Source: a virus
Virus record (IMG/VR): IMGVR_UViG_3300045988_039808
Span: 1 to 6,257 of that record
DNA: 6,257 nt
Strand: one strand, 5' to 3'
The position numbers and the translations under genes were made by a program. Position 1 is the stretch's first letter. Each line of letters begins with the position of its first letter. Shown one piece after another: positions 1 to 6,257 of this stretch. Below the pieces are notes generated by a model, which searched no databases, was not told the DNA's origin, and saw only the letters and a program-made list of their open reading frames with translations.

Positions 1-77
1 AAATCCCAGTCATTCCCTTGAAAATAATCGACTCTTGGAGTAATAGATGTAATACAAAATATATATCCAGGTTCGTC
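1..77. repeat. Terminal direct repeat, copy 1 of 2. It is identical to 6181-6257, a circular-genome assembly redundancy, and gives a unit genome of 6180 nt.
   Basis: Bases 1-77 are exactly repeated at 6181-6257. The capsid reading frame runs continuously across the junction. Confidence 0.9.
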
Positions 78-1646
78 GGCTTTAAATATAATGTTGCCTC
101 CTTTGTGGTTAGTTGCGACACCTCTACCTGCTAATGTACCCAATGGTTGTTCTTCGCTTCCGCTGTTGTTTACAACTTCTTGGAATTCTATTTCGAGAGA
201 ACTTCCGCCCAAATACATTGGTGTTTCGACGTGGTTGAGACCGCCGCTTGTATATACAGTTTGAATCCAGGCGTTATAGCTTCCGTCACTTACGGCGATA
301 CGATTAAGCATAGTGTATACTTTTTTAGCGAGGTTTAGAGTATCGAGCGTAAAACTACCTGACCTCGTATCGATAGCAGTTATGGCGTTAACCCCTGTAT
401 CTCCATCTAACCATTCGGTATTGACCCAGTTGGTATTAATGTCGCTTTGATAGGTTTTTAATACTAACCCAACCATAGGATATGCACATGCTGGTATTTC
501 ATTCCTCTCTGGATCTACCGCGTTGTCGTCTATATATGTTTTGAATATATTATTAATAAATAGGTCGCTCGCTTCATACGCAGTTCTCCCCGCTGATAAT
601 ATATTCTCTCTCATGGTATCGATTGTAGACAATTCGATTTTTTCGTAGTTTTGAGAGTCTGATTTTGCTACAATTTTTTTATTGGTTTTTAAGGAATGCA
701 CTCCCTGTGCCATTGCAGTAAGAGGAATTATATACGATTGAGAATTAGAACCTGTTGCTACAGCACTTCTCAATATTGCACCATCATTTAAAAGGTCAGA
801 TAAATACCCTTTAAATTCGCCTATTCCGTATGTGTCGAATCTTAAATAACCGAAGTCTATATAAATATCTGCTTCGTTAATTGCTACGTATGACTGAATG
901 ACAAATCCATAATAGTAATCAGAACCTACTGGAACGTTTATCTTATCATCTATCGGGTTACTTGATATTTTTTTTATCTCTGACCATTTTTGTGATATTT
1001 TGCTTTGAATATTGAAGTAAATTGTATTTCCCGTAGAGTTATTAGTTGTGTATTGGTATATACTATTCCCTACTATTTGGTAAAATGAACTTTCTTGTTT
1101 GTTTGCATAGTAATTTTTGAAAATGTCAAAGTACATAATTATAGGAAGAACTTGTATTTGTCCCCTATCTTGCTCAGCTTCTTCCGAATTAAGTGCTTTA
1201 TATCCAAGGTAAAAAGGAAGAGAGCTTGGGTTTACTTGTTTTCTTAATGTGTTTGCGCTTCCCTCTAAGTATTCTTGAGTTAATTTTGAATTTTGTAAAC
1301 GTACATATGGAAATTTAACTTTTTTCATGTCAAGCCCAATATTCAATGCGTTGTTATGTAACATTGCATTGTATAATCGAATTGGACAGAAGAAGAAGTC
1401 GTTTTGTTGTTTAAAGCTTCCGAACAATGGTCCAATTGTCGGGTGTGTCAATGTGTGACATCTTGTTTGAATAGGGAAGGTATCTCCTGGAAGAACTAAA
1501 TGCTTCATAGTTGGCACCAGAACTCCTGGCGCCATAGATGTTCTACATACATGACTTAAATCGTGAGTACTGCGGTTATAATTATTCAACCGTGTCGTCA
1601 TTTTTTTGCCACCTCCGAGGGTGTTTTTACCAATATTTACTTTCAT
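1..1646 (-). CDS. VP1: Microviridae major capsid protein (VP1/F-like), N-terminal 548 codons. The start ATG is at 1644-1646. The ORF leaves the window at base 1 and continues at 6180 in the circular genome.
   Basis: I translated the whole minus frame, taking plus-strand triplets that start at positions divisible by 3. It is open from 1646 to 3 with no stop codon. The N-terminus reads MKVNIGKNTLGGGKKMTTRLNNYNRSTHDLSHVCRTSMAPGVLVPTMKHLVLPGDTFPIQ. The motifs DLSH, G-LVP and VLPGDTF are the hallmark N-terminus of Microviridae major capsid proteins. The protein also contains MLNRIAVSDGSYNAWIQTVY and ITSITPRVDY, which resemble conserved capsid blocks. The ORF is missing from the supplied track only because it crosses the window edge. 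An alternative start lies at Met16, base 1601. Confidence 0.9.
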   Translation of the reverse strand, partial: MKVNIGKNTLGGGKKMTTRLNNYNRSTHDLSHVCRTSMAPGVLVPTMKHLVLPGDTFPIQTRCHTLTHPTIGPLFGSFKQQNDFFFCPIRLYNAMLHNNALNIGLDMKKVKFPYVRLQNSKLTQEYLEGSANTLRKQVNPSSLPFYLGYKALNSEEAEQDRGQIQVLPIIMYFDIFKNYYANKQESSFYQIVGNSIYQYTTNNSTGNTIYFNIQSKISQKWSEIKKISSNPIDDKINVPVGSDYYYGFVIQSYVAINEADIYIDFGYLRFDTYGIGEFKGYLSDLLNDGAILRSAVATGSNSQSYIIPLTAMAQGVHSLKTNKKIVAKSDSQNYEKIELSTIDTMRENILSAGRTAYEASDLFINNIFKTYIDDNAVDPERNEIPACAYPMVGLVLKTYQSDINTNWVNTEWLDGDTGVNAITAIDTRSGSFTLDTLNLAKKVYTMLNRIAVSDGSYNAWIQTVYTSGGLNHVETPMYLGGSSLEIEFQEVVNNSGSEEQPLGTLAGRGVATNHKGGNIIFKADEPGYIFCITSITPRVDYFQGNDWD

Positions 1647-1906
1647 TTTTCTTCGTTTTTAAGTTGTTGATTATTAAGCTCATTAAGTCTTTGGCACATG
1701 GCTCCGATGATTGATAGGTCCATGTTTGTTAATTTGAAATTTTCGTTAAGATACTCCATTGCTTCTTCTTGTGTGTCGAACACGTGTGGTGTTACTACGT
1801 ATTCCCCTACGGTGAATACAAATTTATCTTCTTCCCCTCTACGCATTGCACGTACTTGTACTACGTCCTGGCCTTCCGCCCATTGTACTGCTTCTTGTTG
1901 ATCCAT
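1643..1906 (-). CDS. Hypothetical small acidic protein of 87 aa. Its stop codon overlaps the capsid start codon.
   Basis: The ORF ends in a TGA that overlaps the capsid ATG as ATGA at 1643-1646. It carries 17 Asp/Glu residues against 8 Lys/Arg. There is no Shine-Dalgarno sequence, as with every other gene here. It is the last member of the tightly packed small-ORF operon. Confidence 0.5.
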   Translation of the reverse strand: MDQQEAVQWAEGQDVVQVRAMRRGEEDKFVFTVGEYVVTPHVFDTQEEAMEYLNENFKLTNMDLSIIGAMCQRLNELNNQQLKNEEK

Positions 1907-1908
1907 GA

Positions 1909-2187
1909 TTAAATGTTTTTAATTGCTTCAATTTTTGTTAATATAATTTTACTTTTACGTAAATCGTTTTCAAGTCGTTCTGCTTCTTTGAATAAGCAGC
2001 AATTCATGACAGTTCTAAACCCTTTTACAAGTTGTCCTGTGTCCCATTCGAATCCTTCCCACATAAGAGAATAATAACCCTCGCTGAATGCTTCGAAGGG
2101 TATCTTGGCGGACTTAATCCACTCTTTTTTACGGAACTTGCCGTACTTTGTAATTGATGGTATCATTGTGATTTGTAATTGAATCAT
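1909..2187 (-). CDS. Hypothetical protein of 92 aa.
   Basis: The ORF sits 2 nt upstream of the 87-aa ORF. Its first 59 nt overlap the 3' end of the 72-aa membrane-protein ORF in a different frame. The start is uncertain: an internal Met at codon 8 (base 2166) still overlaps that ORF. Confidence 0.4.
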   Translation of the reverse strand: MIQLQITMIPSITKYGKFRKKEWIKSAKIPFEAFSEGYYSLMWEGFEWDTGQLVKGFRTVMNCCLFKEAERLENDLRKSKIILTKIEAIKNI

Positions 2188-2347
2188 TTTGGCATTTGTT
2201 ATTCACATTCACGGTATTCCCCGAAATCTTCCAAGTGCTTCCACAGCCTTCGAATATATAGGATATTGCTAATAATACAGCTGCACCTATAACACTTGCC
2301 ACTGTTTTCCAATTTTCTTTTAAAAATTGCTTGATCTCTTCTTTCAT
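2129..2347 (-). CDS. Small single-pass membrane protein of 72 aa. It is a candidate lysis or membrane-targeting protein.
   Basis: The charged N-terminus MKEEIKQFLKENWK is followed by the hydrophobic helix TVASVIGAAVLLAISYIF. The C-terminal tail is polar and Asn/Thr-rich. The ORF starts 2 nt after the 103-aa ORF stop. Confidence 0.45.
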   Translation of the reverse strand: MKEEIKQFLKENWKTVASVIGAAVLLAISYIFEGCGSTWKISGNTVNVNNKCQNDSITNHNDTINYKVRQVP

Positions 2348-2349
2348 AA

Positions 2350-2661
2350 TTAATAAATTTTACAATATTTAATCTTTAAAGTGTCGTCGTATTCTTTTAA
2401 TGCCTCGACTACTAATTTGGCGTTTTTTTTTGAATTCACGACAAGAGTGGAAATATTTAACCCTTCTTTAACATTTTCGATTACATTTACCTCCCATCGA
2501 TGACCAGTACTTTCTTCTTCAAAGTAGGTTATGACGCACCCTTTGTTTTGATAGACAATTCGTTGTCCGTGATTAATAGCCTCTTTTTCATTTTTGAACT
2601 TTTTTAAATAAAACAGCTCTTGGCTGTAACTTCTTGCGATGATAGCAATTTTTGTTTCCAT
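2350..2661 (-). CDS. Hypothetical protein of 103 aa. By its position after the replication gene it could be a VP5-like small protein.
   Basis: It is the first long ORF after the large intergenic region. It is separated from the upstream 50-aa ORF and the downstream 72-aa ORF by 2-nt gaps. I recognise no motifs in it. Confidence 0.5.
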   Translation of the reverse strand: METKIAIIARSYSQELFYLKKFKNEKEAINHGQRIVYQNKGCVITYFEEESTGHRWEVNVIENVKEGLNISTLVVNSKKNAKLVVEALKEYDDTLKIKYCKIY

Positions 2662-2663
2662 AA

Positions 2664-2816
2664 TTATTTAACTTTAGTTACTGAATAATCTACTACTTCT
2701 ACAATTTCTCTGGCTCCTTTAACAAATAATTCACATGCTCTCTTTGTTTTGAGCGTTTGTCGAAGGATAATTTTTTTCCCTTCGGTTGTCTTGGCGTTTG
2801 CTATTACTGTATACAT
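2664..2816 (-). CDS. Small basic protein of 50 aa, MYTVIANAKTTEGKKIILRQTLKTKRACELFVKGAREIVEVVDYSVTKVK. It is a candidate DNA-binding protein analogous to phiX174 J or gokushovirus VP8.
   Basis: I translated this ORF myself; it is under 60 aa and so absent from the track. The ATG is at 2814-2816. The TAA stop at 2664-2666 lies 2 nt before the 103-aa ORF start. It has 12 Lys/Arg against 5 Asp/Glu. It sits about 30-50 nt downstream of a promoter-like element. Confidence 0.3.
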   Translation of the reverse strand: MYTVIANAKTTEGKKIILRQTLKTKRACELFVKGAREIVEVVDYSVTKVK

Positions 2817-2842
2817 GGCTTTTGTTTTTTGATTACGTTGTA

Positions 2843-2871
2843 AAGATAATATAAAAAGTCCCCTTTGTCAA
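2843..2871 (-). promoter_or_regulatory. Sigma-70-like promoter candidate for the small-ORF and capsid operon.
   Basis: On the minus strand there is a perfect TTGACA, complementary to 2866-2871. A 17-nt spacer follows. Then comes TATCTT, complementary to 2843-2848. Alternatively TATTAT (complementary to 2846-2851) lies at 14-nt spacing. The element is about 30-50 nt upstream of the 50-aa ORF ATG. The host appears to be Bacteroidota, which uses a different consensus, so confidence is low. Confidence 0.25.
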
Positions 2872-2921
2872 GTAAATATCCCTTTTTAACCTATGTTATT
2901 AACATATTTAACTATTGCCCG

Positions 2922-2936
2922 ATTCCTGCAAGGAAT
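2922..2936. promoter_or_regulatory. Small hairpin ATTCCT-gca-AGGAAT with a 6-bp stem and 3-nt loop, next to the larger stem-loop.
   Basis: This is a perfect inverted repeat read directly from the sequence. Confidence 0.35.
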
Positions 2937-2947
2937 ACAGCGAAACG

Positions 2948-2987
2948 AGCTCTGCCGTTGAGCGTATAAATTAAGGAAAGCAGAGCT
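2948..2987. promoter_or_regulatory. Stem-loop with a perfect 8-bp stem AGCTCTGC/GCAGAGCT and a 24-nt AT-rich loop. It is a candidate replication-origin or Rep-transcript termination structure.
   Basis: The arms are 2948-2955 and 2980-2987. The loop is cgttgagcgtataaattaaggaaa. It lies about 50 nt downstream of the replication gene stop on the coding strand. Confidence 0.5.
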
Positions 2988-3009
2988 TTCCGCCTTAAAC
3001 ATTTAAAAA

Positions 3010-3029
3010 TACTGTCTGTTTACTGTCTG
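3010..3029. repeat. Tandem direct repeat TACTGTCTG-tt-TACTGTCTG with an 11-nt period, followed by a third partial copy TACT at 3031-3034. It is iteron-like.
   Basis: The exact 9-nt copies are at 3010-3018 and 3021-3029. They lie immediately 3' of the replication gene stop (3038-3040) on the coding strand. One helical turn of spacing suggests a same-face protein-binding site. Confidence 0.45.
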
Positions 3030-3037
3030 GTACTATT

Positions 3038-4168
3038 TCACACTTGTCCAAATGCACCCAATGCGTCGCAATGCTCCGAGGTAGTGCACCTTCTTACTCT
3101 TTTGAATGTCCACATATTATCTTTAATATATTGATTAATAATATCTTCCCATTCTTGTTTTACCTCTTGCATAGGAAAATCGGCCTGTGACGACAACTCT
3201 GTTAGATTTTCCGTGCTGAATTTTTCAGCTATTTTTTTTGCTTCCGCGATAGCCTTTCGTTGTTTTTCTTCTTTCCTGCGTTCTTTCATAGCATTCCATG
3301 TAATAGGATCATCACCCATAACTGTTTTACCATATTCCTGCCAGTATCTTCTTAGATTGTCTATTGTTTTCCAGTCGTTAGCTTTTACTTTTTCTCCATA
3401 TATCCACAATAGTCCTCTATTTAGGTTGTTTATCCACATTTTTTCACGTTCTTTGTCGGTAAATATTTTATTTTTGTAGTATTTAGGCATAGCCATTTTT
3501 GTTCCGTTGCGAAATGTATAGGTGGCTACTTCGATTTTTTTGTAGTTTTGCTTTTGCCATAGGTAATCTAGTCTATCCATATATCCTGATCCTATGCCTT
3601 TACTTGATAATACGATTTGTTTGAATTCTGGATGTTTTGTGTCTACCTTTAACATATATTTTGTCATATAGTTGACACTTCGACTATTACAATATTGGCC
3701 TATGAATGAAAATCCGTATTTCCAGTGTTTTTTTATCAGTTCTGCGCTTTTTTGTCCGAAAAATATACCATGTAGATGTATTCGATCCTTTTTTTCTCCG
3801 AGTTCCGTGACACACCAATGTTTTATACTTTTCGACGTATCTTTCCGACAGCGTTCTAAAAACAATCTTAGCCCTTTTGTAGCTATTTCGTTTGGGTTTT
3901 CTTTCCATTTTAACCCTGTTTTTTCTTCGAGTTCTGCGATACCCTCTTGCGATATGGTTAACGTGATAAAGTAACCGAAATTTGAACGTAACTCCTCTTC
4001 TAATCGTACTCTCCATTCTCTTTGTTTCTCCTTTCTGCATTCAATACAACAACCACATTTTATTGGAACGTAATACAACCTCCTGTCCCGGCAGACAGGA
4101 GGTTTCCCTTTGTTTTTTTTATTAGGTTTATACTTTGGGTTTTTAACAAAAGTAGGATATAGACACAT
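3038..4168 (-). CDS. VP4: Replication initiation protein of 376 aa, VP4 or gene-A-like. It is a superfamily I HUH rolling-circle endonuclease.
   Basis: The N-terminus MCLYPTF... matches the MxCxxP start typical of microvirus VP4. There is a Cys cluster CGCCIEC with additional Cys26, around 4037-4057. Motif I is FITLT. The HUH motif IHLHGIFF lies at 3770-3778. The dual-tyrosine active site VNYMTKYMLK lies at 3656-3670, with YxxKY spacing as in phiX174 gpA YVAKYVNK. The ATG follows 1 nt after the VP2 stop. Confidence 0.93.
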   Translation of the reverse strand: MCLYPTFVKNPKYKPNKKNKGKPPVCRDRRLYYVPIKCGCCIECRKEKQREWRVRLEEELRSNFGYFITLTISQEGIAELEEKTGLKWKENPNEIATKGLRLFLERCRKDTSKSIKHWCVTELGEKKDRIHLHGIFFGQKSAELIKKHWKYGFSFIGQYCNSRSVNYMTKYMLKVDTKHPEFKQIVLSSKGIGSGYMDRLDYLWQKQNYKKIEVATYTFRNGTKMAMPKYYKNKIFTDKEREKMWINNLNRGLLWIYGEKVKANDWKTIDNLRRYWQEYGKTVMGDDPITWNAMKERRKEEKQRKAIAEAKKIAEKFSTENLTELSSQADFPMQEVKQEWEDIINQYIKDNMWTFKRVRRCTTSEHCDALGAFGQV

Positions 4169-4169
4169 A

Positions 4170-5306
4170 TCAATAAGACTCTGTATATGTTTCTGTTGTT
4201 GTAGTTTTGCCTTGTCTGGTTGACTTGGTTTTCACACTGCTTTTCTTTCTGCGTCCTTTGTATAGCATGTCTACGATGTTTTCTCCGAATTCCAAACCTA
4301 ATCCGATTCTTTCGTTAAAGGTTTGTTCTTCCCATCGATCTATCATACCTTCTACTTGTTTACGATAGGTTTCTTTATCCCAATTGTGTTTATCCGCACG
4401 AGCTTGTAATTCATCGATATTGGCTTGTAGATTGTCTATTTGTTTTTCGTTTACCTCTTTTTCACTTATGAACTTTGCTGCCAGCGCGATAGCTACTGCA
4501 TTGTTATAACTTACGGCGTCGACTCTTTCTTCATAAGTGTCTTTCAGATATTGGTTTTTGATCTTTTCATTTTCTTTTCTCCAATATTCGGTGTGAGCTT
4601 CTTCACTGTATTTGGTTGCGGCTGCGAAGGCTACGCTTACATTAGCTCTTGTTAATACTTCCTCCGATTCTCTTAAATCTTTTAATACTTTTTCGGTTTC
4701 TTCCTTAGCTTTTGTCAATGAAGCTAAAGCCTCTTTGTAATCACCCTCTTTCAAATTAAGTTCTATTTGAGAGGCAATTCCTTCAATTCGTTTTAAGGCT
4801 TCTTGTGTATCTACTCCGGAGATCTTTGTTGCTTCGGCTCCTGCTTTTTCGGCTTGTGCTTCTGCTAATGCAATTTGAGCGTCGTTCATTCTTCGTTGTT
4901 GTTCAAGTTGTTGAACTTGTAATGCCATTCCTATAGGATTCCCTTGTGGTTGTTCTGGACTTGATTGATGAGCTCCTCCGCTGGCACCCATACCTCCTGC
5001 TCCGCTTTGGCCGTACATTAGTCCTATATTCAACCCTGCGTTTTTTAAGTGTTTTACTTGATTTTCTGTGTTGGTATAGTCCCAATAATCTTTTGCATAT
5101 TGTTGAGATTGCGCAGCGGCTTGTTGTTGATATTGATTTTGTAGCGCCATAATTCTTTTATTATAAGCTTCTTGTTCTTGCATGGCTCTTTTTGGTGACC
5201 AGCTTAAACCGAAAGCTTGACTTAATGCATTTCCGACGAATCCTATGCCTGTACTTGCTGCCGAAGATCCTAATCCGCTTATAAATGATTTTTCGAAATT
5301 TACCAT
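4170..5306 (-). CDS. VP2: DNA pilot or minor capsid protein of 378 aa, VP2 or H-like.
   Basis: The N-terminus GLGSSAASTGIGFVGNALSQAFGL is Gly-rich and hydrophobic. A Gln-rich segment reads QNQYQQQAAAQSQQY. The motif HLKNAGLNIGLMYG at about 5010-5051 resembles the AGLNP-LMYG block conserved in Microviridae pilot proteins. A Gly-rich linker GAGGMGASGG is followed by a long Glu/Lys-rich predicted coiled coil. The C-terminal tail is basic. Its position directly upstream of the replication gene is typical. Confidence 0.85.
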   Translation of the reverse strand: MVNFEKSFISGLGSSAASTGIGFVGNALSQAFGLSWSPKRAMQEQEAYNKRIMALQNQYQQQAAAQSQQYAKDYWDYTNTENQVKHLKNAGLNIGLMYGQSGAGGMGASGGAHQSSPEQPQGNPIGMALQVQQLEQQRRMNDAQIALAEAQAEKAGAEATKISGVDTQEALKRIEGIASQIELNLKEGDYKEALASLTKAKEETEKVLKDLRESEEVLTRANVSVAFAAATKYSEEAHTEYWRKENEKIKNQYLKDTYEERVDAVSYNNAVAIALAAKFISEKEVNEKQIDNLQANIDELQARADKHNWDKETYRKQVEGMIDRWEEQTFNERIGLGLEFGENIVDMLYKGRRKKSSVKTKSTRQGKTTTTETYTESY

Positions 5307-5332
5307 GTTGTTCTATTTGTTTTAGTTTTTCG

Positions 5333-5352
5333 CCCTTGTAACTTTACAAGGG
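5333..5352. promoter_or_regulatory. 20-nt near-perfect palindrome CCCTTGTAA-ct-TTACAAGGG, 27 nt upstream of the VP2 start.
   Basis: Read directly from the sequence. It has no adjacent U-run on the coding strand, so it is not a classic terminator. It is a candidate protein-binding site or ssDNA-origin hairpin. Confidence 0.4.
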
Positions 5353-5388
5353 TACACATATTACTAGATAATATAGGCTACATGCGTA

Positions 5389-5406
5389 CCATTTTGTGAA
5401 AAATGG
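5389..5406. promoter_or_regulatory. AT-rich hairpin CCATTTT-gtga-AAAATGG with a 7-bp stem.
   Basis: A perfect inverted repeat. It is one of three consecutive hairpins in the 148-nt intergenic region between ORF111 and VP2. Confidence 0.3.
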
Positions 5407-5435
5407 AGGGAGTAGAGATTAACTTTCTGACTCCC
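5399..5435 (-). terminator. Candidate intrinsic terminator after the 111-aa ORF.
   Basis: A GC-rich 6-bp stem GGGAGT/ACTCCC (5408-5413 and 5430-5435) encloses a 16-nt loop. On the minus-strand transcript it is followed 3 nt later by UUUUU, complementary to 5399-5403. It lies about 20 nt downstream of the ORF111 stop at 5455-5457. Confidence 0.35.
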
Positions 5436-5454
5436 AGCCTTTTAGATGTGCGGT

Positions 5455-5790
5455 TTATCCCGCCGATTCCTGTTGCGAAGAAGTATCTCCAACTTCCTTC
5501 GAATCGAGGGCATTTTGTTCTTGTTGTTCTATTTTTCCGTAGTTTTTACTTTTTGCAAGGTTTGCTTGGTTTACTGCGTCCATAGCTTCTTGTGCAATCT
5601 CCCATCGATCTGTACGAATATTATACGCTGGAAGTACACCGTCTTCTCTGTTGGTGTAGATAATTGGTGCGCCATCTGTGATAGGTTCGTTGTTTTCGGT
5701 AATTCTACGAACTTTATTTTCAATACTTTCTCCATCTTGGAATTCATAGTTTGTTTTTGGAGGTCTTGGAAAGAATTTTGGCTTATTCAT
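5455..5790 (-). CDS. Hypothetical acidic protein of 111 aa between VP1 and VP2. It may be an internal scaffolding (VP3-like) analogue.
   Basis: The ATG lies 11 nt after the capsid stop. The protein has 19 Asp/Glu against 14 Lys/Arg and is Gln/Glu-rich at the C-terminus. It occupies the VP3 slot of gokushovirus gene order, but I cannot assert sequence-level similarity. Confidence 0.5.
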   Translation of the reverse strand: MNKPKFFPRPPKTNYEFQDGESIENKVRRITENNEPITDGAPIIYTNREDGVLPAYNIRTDRWEIAQEAMDAVNQANLAKSKNYGKIEQQEQNALDSKEVGDTSSQQESAG

Positions 5791-5801
5791 AATTATAAGT
5801 T

Positions 5802-6257
5802 TTAAATGTTAGGAATAACTTTTGCTGACATGACACGTCTGGGTTTTGTGTTAAATGCAATTTGGACCCAGAAATTTTGAGCGGATATGTCTGTGTCTGC
5901 GAAAATGCTGTTGTATAGGTGAGGAAATACATAGGTTGTATATGTATTTATATCTCCGAATACTCTATTTAGACACATCCAACCTTCGTTTTCGATGAGC
6001 GCGAAATTGCCATATGTTTTATTCACATTGGTCATATATTCAATCCAAGCGGGTTGTTTCCCAATTGATTTTTTTAAATTTGTTATGTCAGCACTGGCGT
6101 TGATATTTTGATATAACCTATCTTGAAACCCGATACCGTCTAACTGAGGTTTATGTAAGTCGTCCATTGTATTAAGGTATAAATCCCAGTCATTCCCTTG
6201 AAAATAATCGACTCTTGGAGTAATAGATGTAATACAAAATATATATCCAGGTTCGTC
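5802..6257 (-). CDS. VP1: C-terminal part of the same major capsid protein. The unique portion is 5802-6180, and 6181-6257 re-reads the duplicated bases 1-77. The stop codon is at 5802-5804. The full protein is 674 aa.
   Basis: This segment is in the same frame as the 1646->1 segment, because the genome length of 6180 is divisible by 3. Translating from 6257 gives DEPGYIFCITSITPRVDYFQGNDWDLYLNTMDDLHKPQLDG..., which runs straight into the 121-aa track ORF 5802..6167. The C-terminus FWVQIAFNTKPRRVMSAKVIPNI is typical of microvirus capsid proteins. The track ORF beginning MDDLHK is not an independent gene. Confidence 0.88.
   Translation of the reverse strand, partial: DEPGYIFCITSITPRVDYFQGNDWDLYLNTMDDLHKPQLDGIGFQDRLYQNINASADITNLKKSIGKQPAWIEYMTNVNKTYGNFALIENEGWMCLNRVFGDINTYTTYVFPHLYNSIFADTDISAQNFWVQIAFNTKPRRVMSAKVIPNI
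6181..6257. repeat. Terminal direct repeat, copy 2 of 2. It duplicates 1-77.
   Basis: Exact 77-nt identity with the window start. Confidence 0.9.

What the first reader, a model, noticed from the sequence alone, without database searches (positions are those of the whole stretch)
2129..2347. 72-aa single-transmembrane protein as a candidate single-gene lysis effector
The architecture is a short charged N-terminus, one hydrophobic helix (TVASVIGAAVLLAISYIF) and a polar Asn/Thr-rich tail. This is shared with phiX174 E and with ssRNA-phage single-gene lysis proteins, which block steps of peptidoglycan synthesis. Microviruses of the gokushovirus and alpavirus type lack an E homologue, and their lysis mechanism is unknown. 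The gene also overlaps the following 92-aa ORF out of frame, a packing solution typical of lysis genes in small phages.
Basis: inference. Interest (0 to 1): 0.55.

Follow-up and report, generated by a model that had tools for sequence, protein, structure and literature searches.

The report
Conserved small lipoprotein-like gene in gut microvirus
The 72-codon gene is real and strongly conserved in a gut microvirus of Bacteroides-type bacteria, but it looks like the precursor of a tiny exported lipoprotein rather than a phiX174-E-like protein; it is the best candidate in this genome for host-cell lysis, and that role is still untested.

Summary
The window is a complete circular microvirus genome (6180 nt plus a 77-nt terminal repeat), with all genes on the minus strand. 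The ORF at 2129-2347 (-) is as described: 72 aa, one hydrophobic helix, and a 59-nt out-of-frame overlap with a 92-aa ORF. It is a real gene. Homologues fall into 607 clusters at 90% identity, and dN/dS is 0.08 over codons 1-52.

- Residues 1-14 are a strongly conserved amphipathic N-terminus (dN/dS 0.01).
- Residues 15-32 are a hydrophobic helix whose sequence is poorly conserved.
- Cys35 is invariant and preceded by G/S/A in 138 of 139 members, which is lipobox-like. Divergent members have canonical LSAC, IIGC or IQAC.
- Residues 35-52 (CGSTWKISGNTVNVNNKC) are near-invariant.
- The last 20 residues evolve as a passenger of the overlapping ORF (dN/dS 4.5).

Relatives with 40-46% VP1 identity carry a second family of small canonical prolipoproteins in the same small-ORF region (35 of 58 genomes; 3983 clusters). 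NCBI names some copies, found in Bacteroides thetaiotaomicron prophages, 'smalltalk protein'.

The genome has no muralytic enzyme and no other membrane protein. Two relatives carry a peptidase plus a tiny TM ORF in the same region. A lysis role is plausible (about 0.4), but probably not by an E-like mechanism. Superinfection exclusion is the main rival.

The parts
2129..2347 (-). o72 coding sequence (72 codons plus stop); candidate small prolipoprotein / envelope effector
   Evidence: ORF list. 607 homologue clusters. dN/dS 0.084 over codons 1-52. Called independently on three other contigs.
2306..2347 (-). Residues 1-14, MKEEIKQFLKENWK: charged amphipathic N-terminal helix, predicted cytoplasmic
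   Evidence: dN/dS 0.012 with pS 0.70, so the constraint is on the protein and not the DNA. AF2 helix 2-11. The pattern K-x-x-[IL]-K-x-[FWY]-[ILV]-K-[EN]-[NH]-W recurs in the 50%-identity representatives.
2252..2305 (-). Residues 15-32, TVASVIGAAVLLAISYIF: hydrophobic helix (signal-peptide h-region or membrane anchor)
   Evidence: KD19 1.92. AF2 helix 13-31. dN/dS 0.33, and wholly different hydrophobic sequences in L019, L020 and L037.
2243..2254 (-). Residues 32-35, F-E-G-C: lipobox-like motif with invariant Cys35
   Evidence: Cys is invariant. Position -1 is G/S/A in 138/139, -3 is hydrophobic in 131/139, and -2 is variable (E in 100/139). Only 25/139 pass PROSITE PS00013, and the window's own copy fails at -2. 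Divergent members have LSAC, IIGC, IQAC, IQSC. UniRef names the Dulem virus 224 homologue 'Lipoprotein'.
2192..2245 (-). Residues 35-52, CGSTWKISGNTVNVNNKC: conserved periplasmic core, predicted beta-hairpin, second Cys at 52
   Evidence: dN/dS 0.026. C-G-S-[TA]-W and N44 are invariant across the 13 sequences aligned (10 of them 50%-identity representatives). AF2 strands 37-42 and 45-50 at pLDDT about 53.
2132..2191 (-). Residues 53-72: polar tail, mostly overlapped by o92; passenger sequence
   Evidence: In the o72 frame pS is 0.03 and dN/dS is 4.5. The same nucleotides in the o92 frame give dN/dS 0.042. Family proteins are 69, 72, 75, 77, 78, 80, 81 and 84 aa long, mostly through different tail ends (the 75-, 78- and 81-aa ones are longer at the N-terminus). 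pLDDT is below 50.
1909..2187 (-). o92, 92-aa ORF of unknown function; its start overlaps the o72 tail by 59 nt
   Evidence: Conserved, with dN/dS 0.04-0.08. No Pfam, PHROG, NCBIfam or PDB-sequence match.
2350..2661 (-). o103, upstream neighbour of unknown function; its stop is 2 nt before the o72 ATG
   Evidence: No family or PDB-sequence match. Two paralogous copies in L037.
2843..2991 (-). Non-coding stretch after VP4 with a terminator-like hairpin (2991-2975) and a sigma-70-like promoter match (2871-2843), ahead of the o50-o103-o72-o92-o87-VP1 gene string
   Evidence: Consensus scan only. Bacteroidota promoters are not covered by the scan, so this is a weak indication of one late transcription unit.

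Best explanation
o72 encodes the precursor of a very small exported envelope protein of a Bacteroidales-infecting, alpavirus-type microvirus. It is most likely a prolipoprotein.

Proposed sequence of events:
1. The amphipathic N-terminus and the hydrophobic helix insert the protein into the inner membrane, N-in and C-out. The helix and hydrophobicity are shown; the topology is inferred.
2. The invariant Cys35, preceded by a small residue, is diacylglyceryl-modified by Lgt, and LspA removes the signal peptide. This step is inferred.
3. The product is a lipopeptide of about 38 residues whose conserved beta-hairpin core (CGSTWKISGNTVNVNNKC) faces the periplasm. It lacks the acidic Bacteroidota surface-export signal, so it should stay on the periplasmic side (inferred).
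4. Its most likely job is to bring about host lysis or release by acting on a conserved envelope component from the periplasmic or membrane side. The conserved N-terminal signal segment may contribute, as the stable signal peptides of colicin lysis lipoproteins do.

It does not work like phiX174 E, where a specific TM helix blocks MraY. The C-terminal 20 residues are largely a by-product of the overlapping o92 gene.
For: Real, constrained gene.

Modular constraint: N-terminus dN/dS 0.012, hydrophobic segment 0.33, post-Cys core 0.026, tail 4.5. The o92 frame over the overlap gives 0.042.

Lipobox character:
- Cys is invariant, and -1 is G/S/A in 138/139.
- Canonical lipoboxes occur in 7 of the 12 50%-identity representatives and in the Dulem virus 224 protein (P0121).
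- UniRef labels the Dulem virus 224 homologue 'Lipoprotein'.
- Cys35 is kept in members that lack the second Cys, so it is not merely half of a disulfide.

Relatives:
- 35 of 58 relatives at 40-46% VP1 identity carry canonical small prolipoproteins in the same accessory region. A profile-profile comparison with the o72 family gives a weak match that registers helix, Cys and the I-x-x-N motif (P 1.5e-4, probability 51%).

Lysis candidacy:
- o72 is the only hydrophobic ORF in the genome.
- No muralytic or E-like domain was found in any ORF.
- Relatives L100 and L101 carry Peptidase_M15_3 or a LAS-like peptidase plus a 32-43-aa TM ORF in the same region. None of the lipoprotein-bearing genomes has an M15_3-type peptidase like those of phiHBP1 and L100.
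- Published work says lysis in non-phiX174 microviruses is unexplained apart from such peptidases (PMC3394797, PMC9239249).

No surface-export signal: the signal is C-X-K-(D/E)2 or SDDDD (PMC5080379), against CGSTWK here.

Host: Bacteroides thetaiotaomicron prophages carry the sister family. A Phocaeicola MAG holds a VP1 at 58% identity. There are no Shine-Dalgarno sequences upstream of the genes.
Against: - The window's own motif F-E-G-C has Glu at -2 and fails PROSITE PS00013, as do 114 of 139 family members.
- The n-region is unusually long (14 residues, net charge +1) and unusually conserved for a signal peptide that is simply discarded.
- Nothing here shows lipidation, cleavage or toxicity.
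- 23 of 58 more distant relatives, a Phocaeicola prophage-like element, and Microvirus mar60 (apart from a 25-codon mini-ORF) lack such a gene. The lineage as a whole can therefore get out of cells without it, or uses something else.
- The peptidase-cassette comparison rests on two genomes.
- There is no sequence similarity to any known lysis protein. The PHROG holin hit has E 0.061, and tblastn hits to holin/spanin regions have E 0.2-0.9. Both are at chance level.
Confidence: 0.4

Rival explanations
1. Superinfection-exclusion or receptor-masking lipoprotein, working like T5 Llp or phi80/N15 Cor. The small lipoprotein would sit on the periplasmic side of the outer membrane and bind the phage's receptor, or a channel needed for DNA entry. 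This would protect infected or lysogenic cells, and it would protect progeny from being wasted on cell debris.
For: The architecture is the same kind as Llp: a small phage lipoprotein with a beta-hairpin core and an extra Cys (PMC9586334 and bioRxiv 10.64898/2026.03.26.714494, listed). The sister family is kept in Bacteroides thetaiotaomicron prophages, where a conversion gene would make sense. The gene is absent from a sizeable part of the wider lineage, as expected of an accessory function.
Against: The o72 core is nearly invariant, while VP1, which carries the variable surface loops, is only 60-88% identical among the same genomes. That decoupling is not what an arms-race partner of the receptor-binding protein would show. 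There is no sequence match to Llp- or Cor-type PHROGs. The strongly conserved cytoplasmic N-terminus has no role in this model. This reading also leaves the genome with no lysis candidate at all.
Confidence: 0.25
2. One reading: an uncleaved single-pass membrane protein that acts as a 'protein antibiotic' on a lipid-II pathway enzyme (MraY, MurJ or similar), like phiX174 E or LysM.
For: It is small, has one TM helix, sits in a genome with no E homologue and no endolysin, and is under strong purifying selection. The non-canonical Glu at -2 could mean that the window's subclade is not processed.
Against: The TM segment is the least conserved module and is swapped for unrelated hydrophobic sequence in L019, L020 and L037. 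In E, by contrast, specificity lies in the TM helix (established knowledge of E and MraY). There is no Pro in the helix. The TM domain is not at the extreme N-terminus. The gene is not embedded in another gene. There is no Pfam or PHROG match to E or other lysis families. The invariance of [GSA]-Cys is unexplained by this model.
Confidence: 0.15
3. A 'smalltalk'-type membrane peptide. The effector would be the N-terminal amphipathic helix plus the TM helix ending in [GSA]-Cys, acting for example as a pore-forming, depolarising or regulatory membrane peptide. Everything after the Cys would be an optional appendage.
For: NCBIfam NF033879 'smalltalk protein' is a 29-position model that covers only the helix-TM-...SC part. 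The N-terminal 29 residues of a sister-family member match it at 4.6e-14. Microvirus mar60 has a tightly packed 25-codon ORF, MKDWVKALLQAIAAAIGALLGGVSC, that ends at the Cys, in the same gene string. The N-terminus of o72 is its most constrained part.
Against: o72 and its N-terminal 35 residues do not match NF033879 even at E up to 10. The 18 residues after the Cys are as constrained as the N-terminus (dN/dS 0.026), so they are not optional here. The mar60 mini-ORF is a single unconfirmed case with no database match. The function of smalltalk proteins is unknown.
Confidence: 0.1

Closest known systems
phiX174 protein E (Pfam Microvir_lysis), the MraY-inhibiting single-gene lysis protein
   Same: A small protein with one hydrophobic helix, encoded by a microvirus that has no endolysin. 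It could be the sole lysis gene.
   Different: No sequence match. The TM helix starts at residue 15, has no Pro and is poorly conserved. The gene stands alone with only a 59-nt 3' overlap, rather than being embedded in a scaffolding gene. The conserved parts are the cytoplasmic N-terminus and a periplasmic Cys-led hairpin.
Colicin lysis (bacteriocin release) lipoproteins, and entericidin B: small bacteriolytic lipoproteins
   Same: The precursor is tens of residues long, with a signal peptide, a lipobox Cys and a polar mature peptide of about 30-40 residues. In colicin lysis proteins the cleaved signal peptide is stable and contributes to killing, which would explain a conserved N-terminus (from my own knowledge of the pCloDF13/ColE literature; general background in PMC2896534 and PMC9517006).
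   Different: No match to Pfam Lysis_col. Those proteins are plasmid- or chromosome-encoded in Enterobacteria and act through OmpLA. The host here is Bacteroidales, and no target is known.
T5 Llp / Cor-type superinfection-exclusion lipoproteins
   Same: A small phage lipoprotein predicted to face the periplasm, with a beta-hairpin-type core and an additional Cys (PMC9586334).
   Different: No sequence similarity. Conservation is decoupled from the variable capsid. A long conserved cytoplasmic N-terminus is present.
NCBIfam NF033879 'smalltalk protein' and the 'family B' microvirus lipoproteins (56-102 aa; 3983 clusters)
   Same: The layout is the same: a charged helix, a hydrophobic helix, [GAS]-Cys, then Cys-x-x-[ST]-[LMW]-x-[IV]-x-x-N. 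Both sit in the same accessory region of related microviruses and share the Bacteroidales host range.
   Different: The o72 family is not detected by the NF033879 or family-B HMMs. The profile-profile match is only suggestive (probability 51%). None of these proteins has a known function.
Rz1-type o-spanins
   Same: A short phage lipoprotein with a single extra Cys, which in Rz1 forms an intermolecular disulfide.
   Different: The genome has no i-spanin partner and no other TM protein. The mature part is not Pro-rich. There is no endolysin or holin for a spanin to follow.

Membership tests
phiX174 E / Microvir_lysis | Sequence match to the family model | tested here: not met
   No Pfam-A hit at E up to 0.1. 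There is no significant PHROG lysis hit; the holin phrog_689 hit has E 0.061.
phiX174 E / Microvir_lysis | Functional TM domain at the extreme N-terminus with a conserved helix sequence (Pro21) | tested here: not met
   The helix spans residues 15-32 and has no Pro. Its dN/dS is 0.33, and it is replaced by unrelated hydrophobic sequence in L019, L020 and L037.
phiX174 E / Microvir_lysis | Gene embedded out of frame within another (scaffolding) gene | tested here: not met
   It is a stand-alone ORF. Only its last 59 nt overlap the start of o92.
phiX174 E / Microvir_lysis | Inhibits MraY; needs SlyD | not testable with these tools
   Needs expression and suppressor genetics.
Bacterial prolipoprotein (signal peptidase II substrate) | Positively charged n-region followed by a hydrophobic h-region | tested here: met
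   There is a K or R within the first 7 residues, and the hydrophobic stretch is residues 15-32. The n-region is atypically long, at 14 residues.
Bacterial prolipoprotein (signal peptidase II substrate) | Lipobox [LVI][ASTVI][GAS]-C (PROSITE PS00013) with Cys within about 35 residues of the start | tested here: inconclusive
   The window copy, F-E-G-C35, has -3, -1 and +1 acceptable but Glu at -2, so it fails the pattern. In the family, Cys is invariant and -1 is G/S/A in 138/139, but only 25/139 pass. Seven of the 12 divergent representatives and the Dulem virus protein pass. UniRef labels the Dulem homologue 'Lipoprotein'.
Bacterial prolipoprotein (signal peptidase II substrate) | Diacylglyceryl modification by Lgt and cleavage by LspA | not testable with these tools
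   Needs lipid labelling and globomycin treatment. SignalP and LipoP are not available here.
NCBIfam NF033879 smalltalk protein | HMM score at or above the curated cut-off (24.7 bits) | tested here: not met
   There is no hit for o72 or for its first 35 residues at E up to 10. Sister-family proteins do hit: P0231 at 30.4 bits, and the L064 N-terminus at 51.9 bits.
Colicin lysis protein (Pfam Lysis_col) | Sequence match to the family model | tested here: not met
   No Pfam hit. The resemblance is architectural only.
o-spanin (Rz1 type) | Adjacent or embedding i-spanin gene (type II membrane protein with a periplasmic coiled coil), and an endolysin/holin context | tested here: not met
   No other ORF in the genome has a TM-grade hydrophobic segment, and no muralytic domain was found.
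Holin | Match to a holin family and pairing with an endolysin gene | tested here: not met
   phrog_689 has E 0.061 over 30 residues, and tblastn hits to Klebsiella phage holin/spanin regions have E 0.2-0.9. Both are at chance level. The genome has no endolysin.
Llp / Cor superinfection-exclusion lipoproteins | Sequence or family match | tested here: not met
   No PHROG, Pfam or NCBIfam match. The function would need a plating test.

The most novel reading that the evidence does not exclude
o72, the family-B lipoproteins and perhaps the 'smalltalk' peptides may together form a previously unrecognised class of lipoprotein-type single-gene lysis effectors of Bacteroidales microviruses. They would kill from the periplasmic side, or by engaging the lipoprotein maturation and trafficking machinery (Lgt, LspA, Lol) or a periplasmic step of wall synthesis. 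This would differ from the known cytoplasmic or intramembrane targets MurA, MraY and MurJ.
Probability: 0.25. Interest if true: 0.8.

Novelty: new variant of a known kind. Interest (0 to 1): 0.5.

Why it matters
How microviruses other than the phiX174 group lyse their hosts has been open since these viruses were described. The only published lead is an M15 peptidase found in a minority of genomes (PMC3394797, PMC9239249). This work turns a single odd ORF into a defined and very widespread gene class: about 600 plus about 4000 clusters at 90% identity, in gut microviruses and in Bacteroides prophages. The class has a clear modular anatomy and specific residues to mutate (Cys35, the N-terminal helix, the CGSTW hairpin). 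If it is the lysis gene, it would be a new type of phage 'protein antibiotic' aimed at the envelope of Bacteroidales, an abundant order of gut bacteria. If it is an exclusion factor, it would point to the receptor or entry route of these uncultured phages.

Tried and rejected
- **Close DNA relatives in GenBank phages:** none.
- **Family searches:** Pfam, PHROGs, NCBIfam and PDB-sequence searches of o72 and of its neighbours o50, o103, o92, o87 and o111 gave nothing significant.
- **tblastn of o72 against phages:** only chance-level hits to Klebsiella phage holin/spanin regions.
- **Family A against the L039/L041 lipoproteins alone:** the profile-profile comparison was not significant. Against the broader family-B alignment it was only suggestive.
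- **Stand-alone 'smalltalk' genes and their neighbours:** I tried to find these, to test my recollection that they sit next to amidase genes in Bacteroides. That recollection is unverified and not used.
- **The mar60 mini-ORF:** no match in phages and no exact entry in the protein collection.
- **A second, overprinted lysis candidate:** the very basic 117-aa ORF inside VP4 (3687-4040, -) stays open in relatives, but synonymous change is not suppressed there (pS 0.73 inside against 0.57 outside). I rejected it as a gene.
- **Rfam:** no RNA family in the window.
- **Structure:** the AlphaFold2 model of o72 has low confidence (mean pLDDT 59), so I ran no fold search on it.
- **Chance ORF:** rejected on the basis of dN/dS and conservation.

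Full report
**1. What the window is**

The first 77 bases repeat at the end, so the window is a circular assembly of 6180 nt. All plausible genes lie on the minus strand, in this order:
- VP1 major capsid protein, 674 aa. It starts at 1646 and wraps through position 1 to 5802.
- o111 (5455-5790).
- VP2 pilot protein (4170-5306).
- VP4 replication initiator (3038-4168; PF23343 and phrog_942).
- A tight string of small ORFs: o50 (2664-2816), o103 (2350-2661), o72 (2129-2347, the finding), o92 (1909-2187) and o87 (1643-1906). The stop of o87 overlaps the VP1 start as ATGA.

Other gene callers produce the same gene set on three independent contigs. The nearest GenBank phage is Dulem virus 224, with 60% VP1 identity, and there is no close DNA match. 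The window holds no Rfam family.

**2.

The ORF, its translation, the hydrophobic stretch TVASVIGAAVLLAISYIF (residues 15-32) and the 59-nt out-of-frame overlap with the 92-aa ORF are all as stated, on the minus strand. The stretch is the only TM-grade segment among the nine minus-strand ORFs (KD19 1.92). AlphaFold2 models it as a helix, with low overall confidence.

**3. It is a real gene under strong selection**

- A protein search found 607 clusters at 90% identity, all on microvirus-sized contigs and all annotated hypothetical where named.
- Twenty viral contigs carry it intact. All 37 contigs held with VP1 at 60% identity or more have it.
- Nei-Gojobori estimates over 19 co-linear sequences give dN/dS 0.084 for the non-overlapping codons 1-52. 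That is about the same constraint as on the Rep gene.

**4. Anatomy: four modules with very different constraint**

- *Residues 1-14, MKEEIKQFLKENWK.* dN/dS is 0.012 while synonymous sites vary freely (pS 0.70). AlphaFold2 models an amphipathic helix.
- *Residues 15-34, the hydrophobic helix and the two residues after it.* dN/dS is 0.33. In L019, L020 and L037 the helix is a completely different hydrophobic sequence.
- *Residues 35-52, CGSTWKISGNTVNVNNKC.* dN/dS is 0.026. AlphaFold2 models a beta-hairpin, weakly.
- *Residues 53-69.* In the o72 frame pS is 0.03 and dN/dS is 4.5. The same nucleotides read in the o92 frame give dN/dS 0.042. Protein length varies (69-84 aa), mostly through different tail ends, and pLDDT is below 50.

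So much of the 'Asn/Thr-rich tail' is a passenger of the next gene. The overlap says more about o92 than about a lysis-gene packing strategy.

**5. The Cys motif**

Across 139 family sequences, Cys35 is invariant. The residue before it is G, S or A in 138 of them. Position -3 is hydrophobic in 131. Position -2 is variable, and is Glu in the window's subclade.

An exhaustive profile search of 1.84 billion representatives found only 12 clusters at 50% identity, all of 53-115 aa. An alignment of 10 of these representatives with the window protein, the Dulem virus 224 protein and an L019 homologue shows C-G-S-[TA]-W and a downstream Asn invariant. Seven of the twelve have canonical lipoboxes, such as LSAC, IIGC, IQAC and TGSC. 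UniRef labels the Dulem virus 224 homologue 'Lipoprotein'.

The second Cys (C52) is common but not universal, whereas Cys35 never changes. Cys35 is therefore not just a disulfide partner.

Against this reading, the window's F-E-G-C fails PROSITE PS00013 at -2, as do most members of its subclade. The n-region is also long and conserved. I read the protein as a prolipoprotein with about 0.65 confidence. The alternative is an uncleaved signal anchor.

The mature N-terminus (CGSTWK) lacks the acidic Bacteroidota surface-export signal, which is C-X-K-(D/E)2 or SDDDD (PMC5080379). That predicts a periplasm-facing product.

**6. A wider pattern**

A VP1-profile scan brought in 58 further genomes at 40-46% VP1 identity. 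Thirty-five of them carry a 'family B' small ORF of 56-102 aa in the small-ORF region. It has a charged N-terminus, a hydrophobic helix, a lipobox-type motif of a small residue followed by Cys (LQAC, GVSC, LGGC, VQSC, ITGC; about two-thirds pass PS00013) and a polar mature peptide (CTMSLSVSKNN...DST..IN.N.K).

Family B has 3983 clusters at 90% identity. It occurs in GenBank microviruses from lemurs, rodents, tortoises, chickens and humans, always as 'hypothetical' or unannotated.

Some copies lie in microvirus prophages in Bacteroides thetaiotaomicron isolate genomes. There PGAP names them 'smalltalk protein' (NCBIfam NF033879), a 29-position model that covers only the helix-TM-...SC part.

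The o72 family does not match NF033879 or the family-B HMM. A profile-profile comparison is only suggestive: probability 51%, P 1.5e-4. It does align helix, Cys and the I-x-x-N motif in register. I treat the two families as architectural and positional equivalents, possibly distant homologues.

These prophages, a Phocaeicola MAG hit and the lack of Shine-Dalgarno sequences place the host in Bacteroidales.

**7. Bearing on lysis**

- No ORF in the window matches a peptidase, lysozyme, amidase, holin or E.
- The overprinted basic ORF inside VP4 shows no synonymous suppression, so I reject it as a gene.
- Among the 23 relatives without a family A or B gene, L100 has Peptidase_M15_3 followed directly by a 32-aa TM ORF. 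L101 has a LAS-like peptidase followed by a 43-aa TM ORF. Both pairs are in the same accessory region.
- The cultured Bacteroides fragilis microvirus phiHBP1 also has an M15 peptidase (PMC13064476).
- None of the lipoprotein-bearing genomes has an M15_3-type peptidase like these.

This fits alternative lysis modules occupying one region, but it rests on few cases. Other relatives have neither kind of gene.

A terminator-like hairpin and a promoter-like match lie just upstream of o50. They hint that o72 is transcribed together with VP1 (weak evidence).

**8. Mechanism**

The distribution of constraint argues against an E-like mechanism. In E the TM helix carries specificity; here the helix is interchangeable. 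The conserved parts are a cytoplasmic amphipathic helix and a periplasmic hairpin that follows a lipidation-type Cys.

The closest working analogy is the small bacteriolytic lipoproteins, namely colicin lysis proteins and entericidin B. In those, both the stable signal peptide and the lipopeptide act on the envelope. I commit to 'exported small lipoprotein acting as the lysis or release effector' at 0.4.

The rivals are:
- a Llp/Cor-like exclusion lipoprotein (0.25);
- an uncleaved E/LysM-like inhibitor (0.15);
- a smalltalk-type membrane peptide in which the part after the Cys is accessory (0.10).

What is shown: gene reality, modular constraint, motif statistics, family distribution and host range. 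What is inferred: topology, lipidation, localisation and function.

**9. Novelty**

Full-text searches found no paper that links microviruses with lipoproteins or names this gene. Databases hold only automatic labels ('Lipoprotein', 'smalltalk protein', 'hypothetical'). Small phage lipoproteins and lytic lipoproteins are known kinds, so this is a new variant of a known kind, in a virus family whose lysis is unexplained.

Noticed in passing
window 1-77 and 6181-6257: An exact 77-nt terminal direct repeat, so the window is a circular assembly and the unit genome is 6180 nt. The repeat falls inside VP1, which is why no long capsid ORF appears in a linear ORF list.
   Followed up: yes
window 3687-4040 (-): A very basic 117-aa ORF overprinted inside the Rep gene (VP4). 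It stays open in L018, L019, L036 and L024. Synonymous change in VP4 is not reduced there (pS 0.73 inside against 0.57 outside), so it is probably not a gene.
   Followed up: yes
window about 3119-3268 (VP4 codons 301-350): Synonymous divergence in VP4 drops to 0.29-0.40 here, against 0.6-0.8 elsewhere in the gene. A cis-acting element or a recently exchanged segment is possible. This is unexplained.
   Followed up: no
L022 (Microvirus mar60, MZ089806) 5927-6004: An unannotated 25-codon ORF, MKDWVKALLQAIAAAIGALLGGVSC, packed exactly between two genes (TAAATG at its start, ATGTTAA at its end). It looks like the helix-TM-...SC module alone, ending at the Cys. No database match was found.
   Followed up: partly
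L104/L105 8001-8204 and L024 3289-8462: Integrated microviruses in bacterial contigs. The first is a Bacteroides thetaiotaomicron prophage flanked by gyrA, clpB and htpG that carries a family-B 'smalltalk' lipoprotein gene. The second is an element in a Phocaeicola MAG with 58% VP1 identity that has no small lipoprotein gene.
   Followed up: partly
L100 670-1201 and L101 109-557: Related microviruses carry a Peptidase_M15_3 or LAS-like peptidase gene immediately followed by a 32-43-aa single-TM ORF. This looks like a minimal endolysin-plus-holin-like cassette, and the small ORF does not appear to have been described.
   Followed up: partly
window 1643-1906 (o87) and 5455-5790 (o111): Both small ORFs are conserved across the whole lineage, including the prophages and the genomes that lack lipoproteins. 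Conserved motifs are EEDKF/Y-I-x-T-x-G in o87 and EPIxDGAPxIYTxRxxGVxPxYxxRTDR in o111. o111 is probably the VP3-type scaffold. The role of o87 is unknown.
   Followed up: no
window 2350-2661 (o103); L037 4631-5253: o103 has a conserved SGHRW motif, is present as two tandem paralogues in L037, and is replaced by unrelated small ORFs in L036. It matches no family or solved structure.
   Followed up: partly
VP1, window 1-1646 and 5802-6180 (-): Among genomes whose other genes are about 80-90% identical, VP1 is only 60-88% identical. The large differences are concentrated in the central part of the protein, which suggests hypervariable surface insertions or recombination.
   Followed up: no
P0126 and P0124 (protein database entries): Two representative 'homologues' have aberrant tails. 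P0126 ends in ...GKQIGRAHV, which looks like a translated sequencing adapter (my own recognition, not tested). P0124 is frameshifted after residue 55. Both are assembly artefacts rather than natural variants.
   Followed up: no
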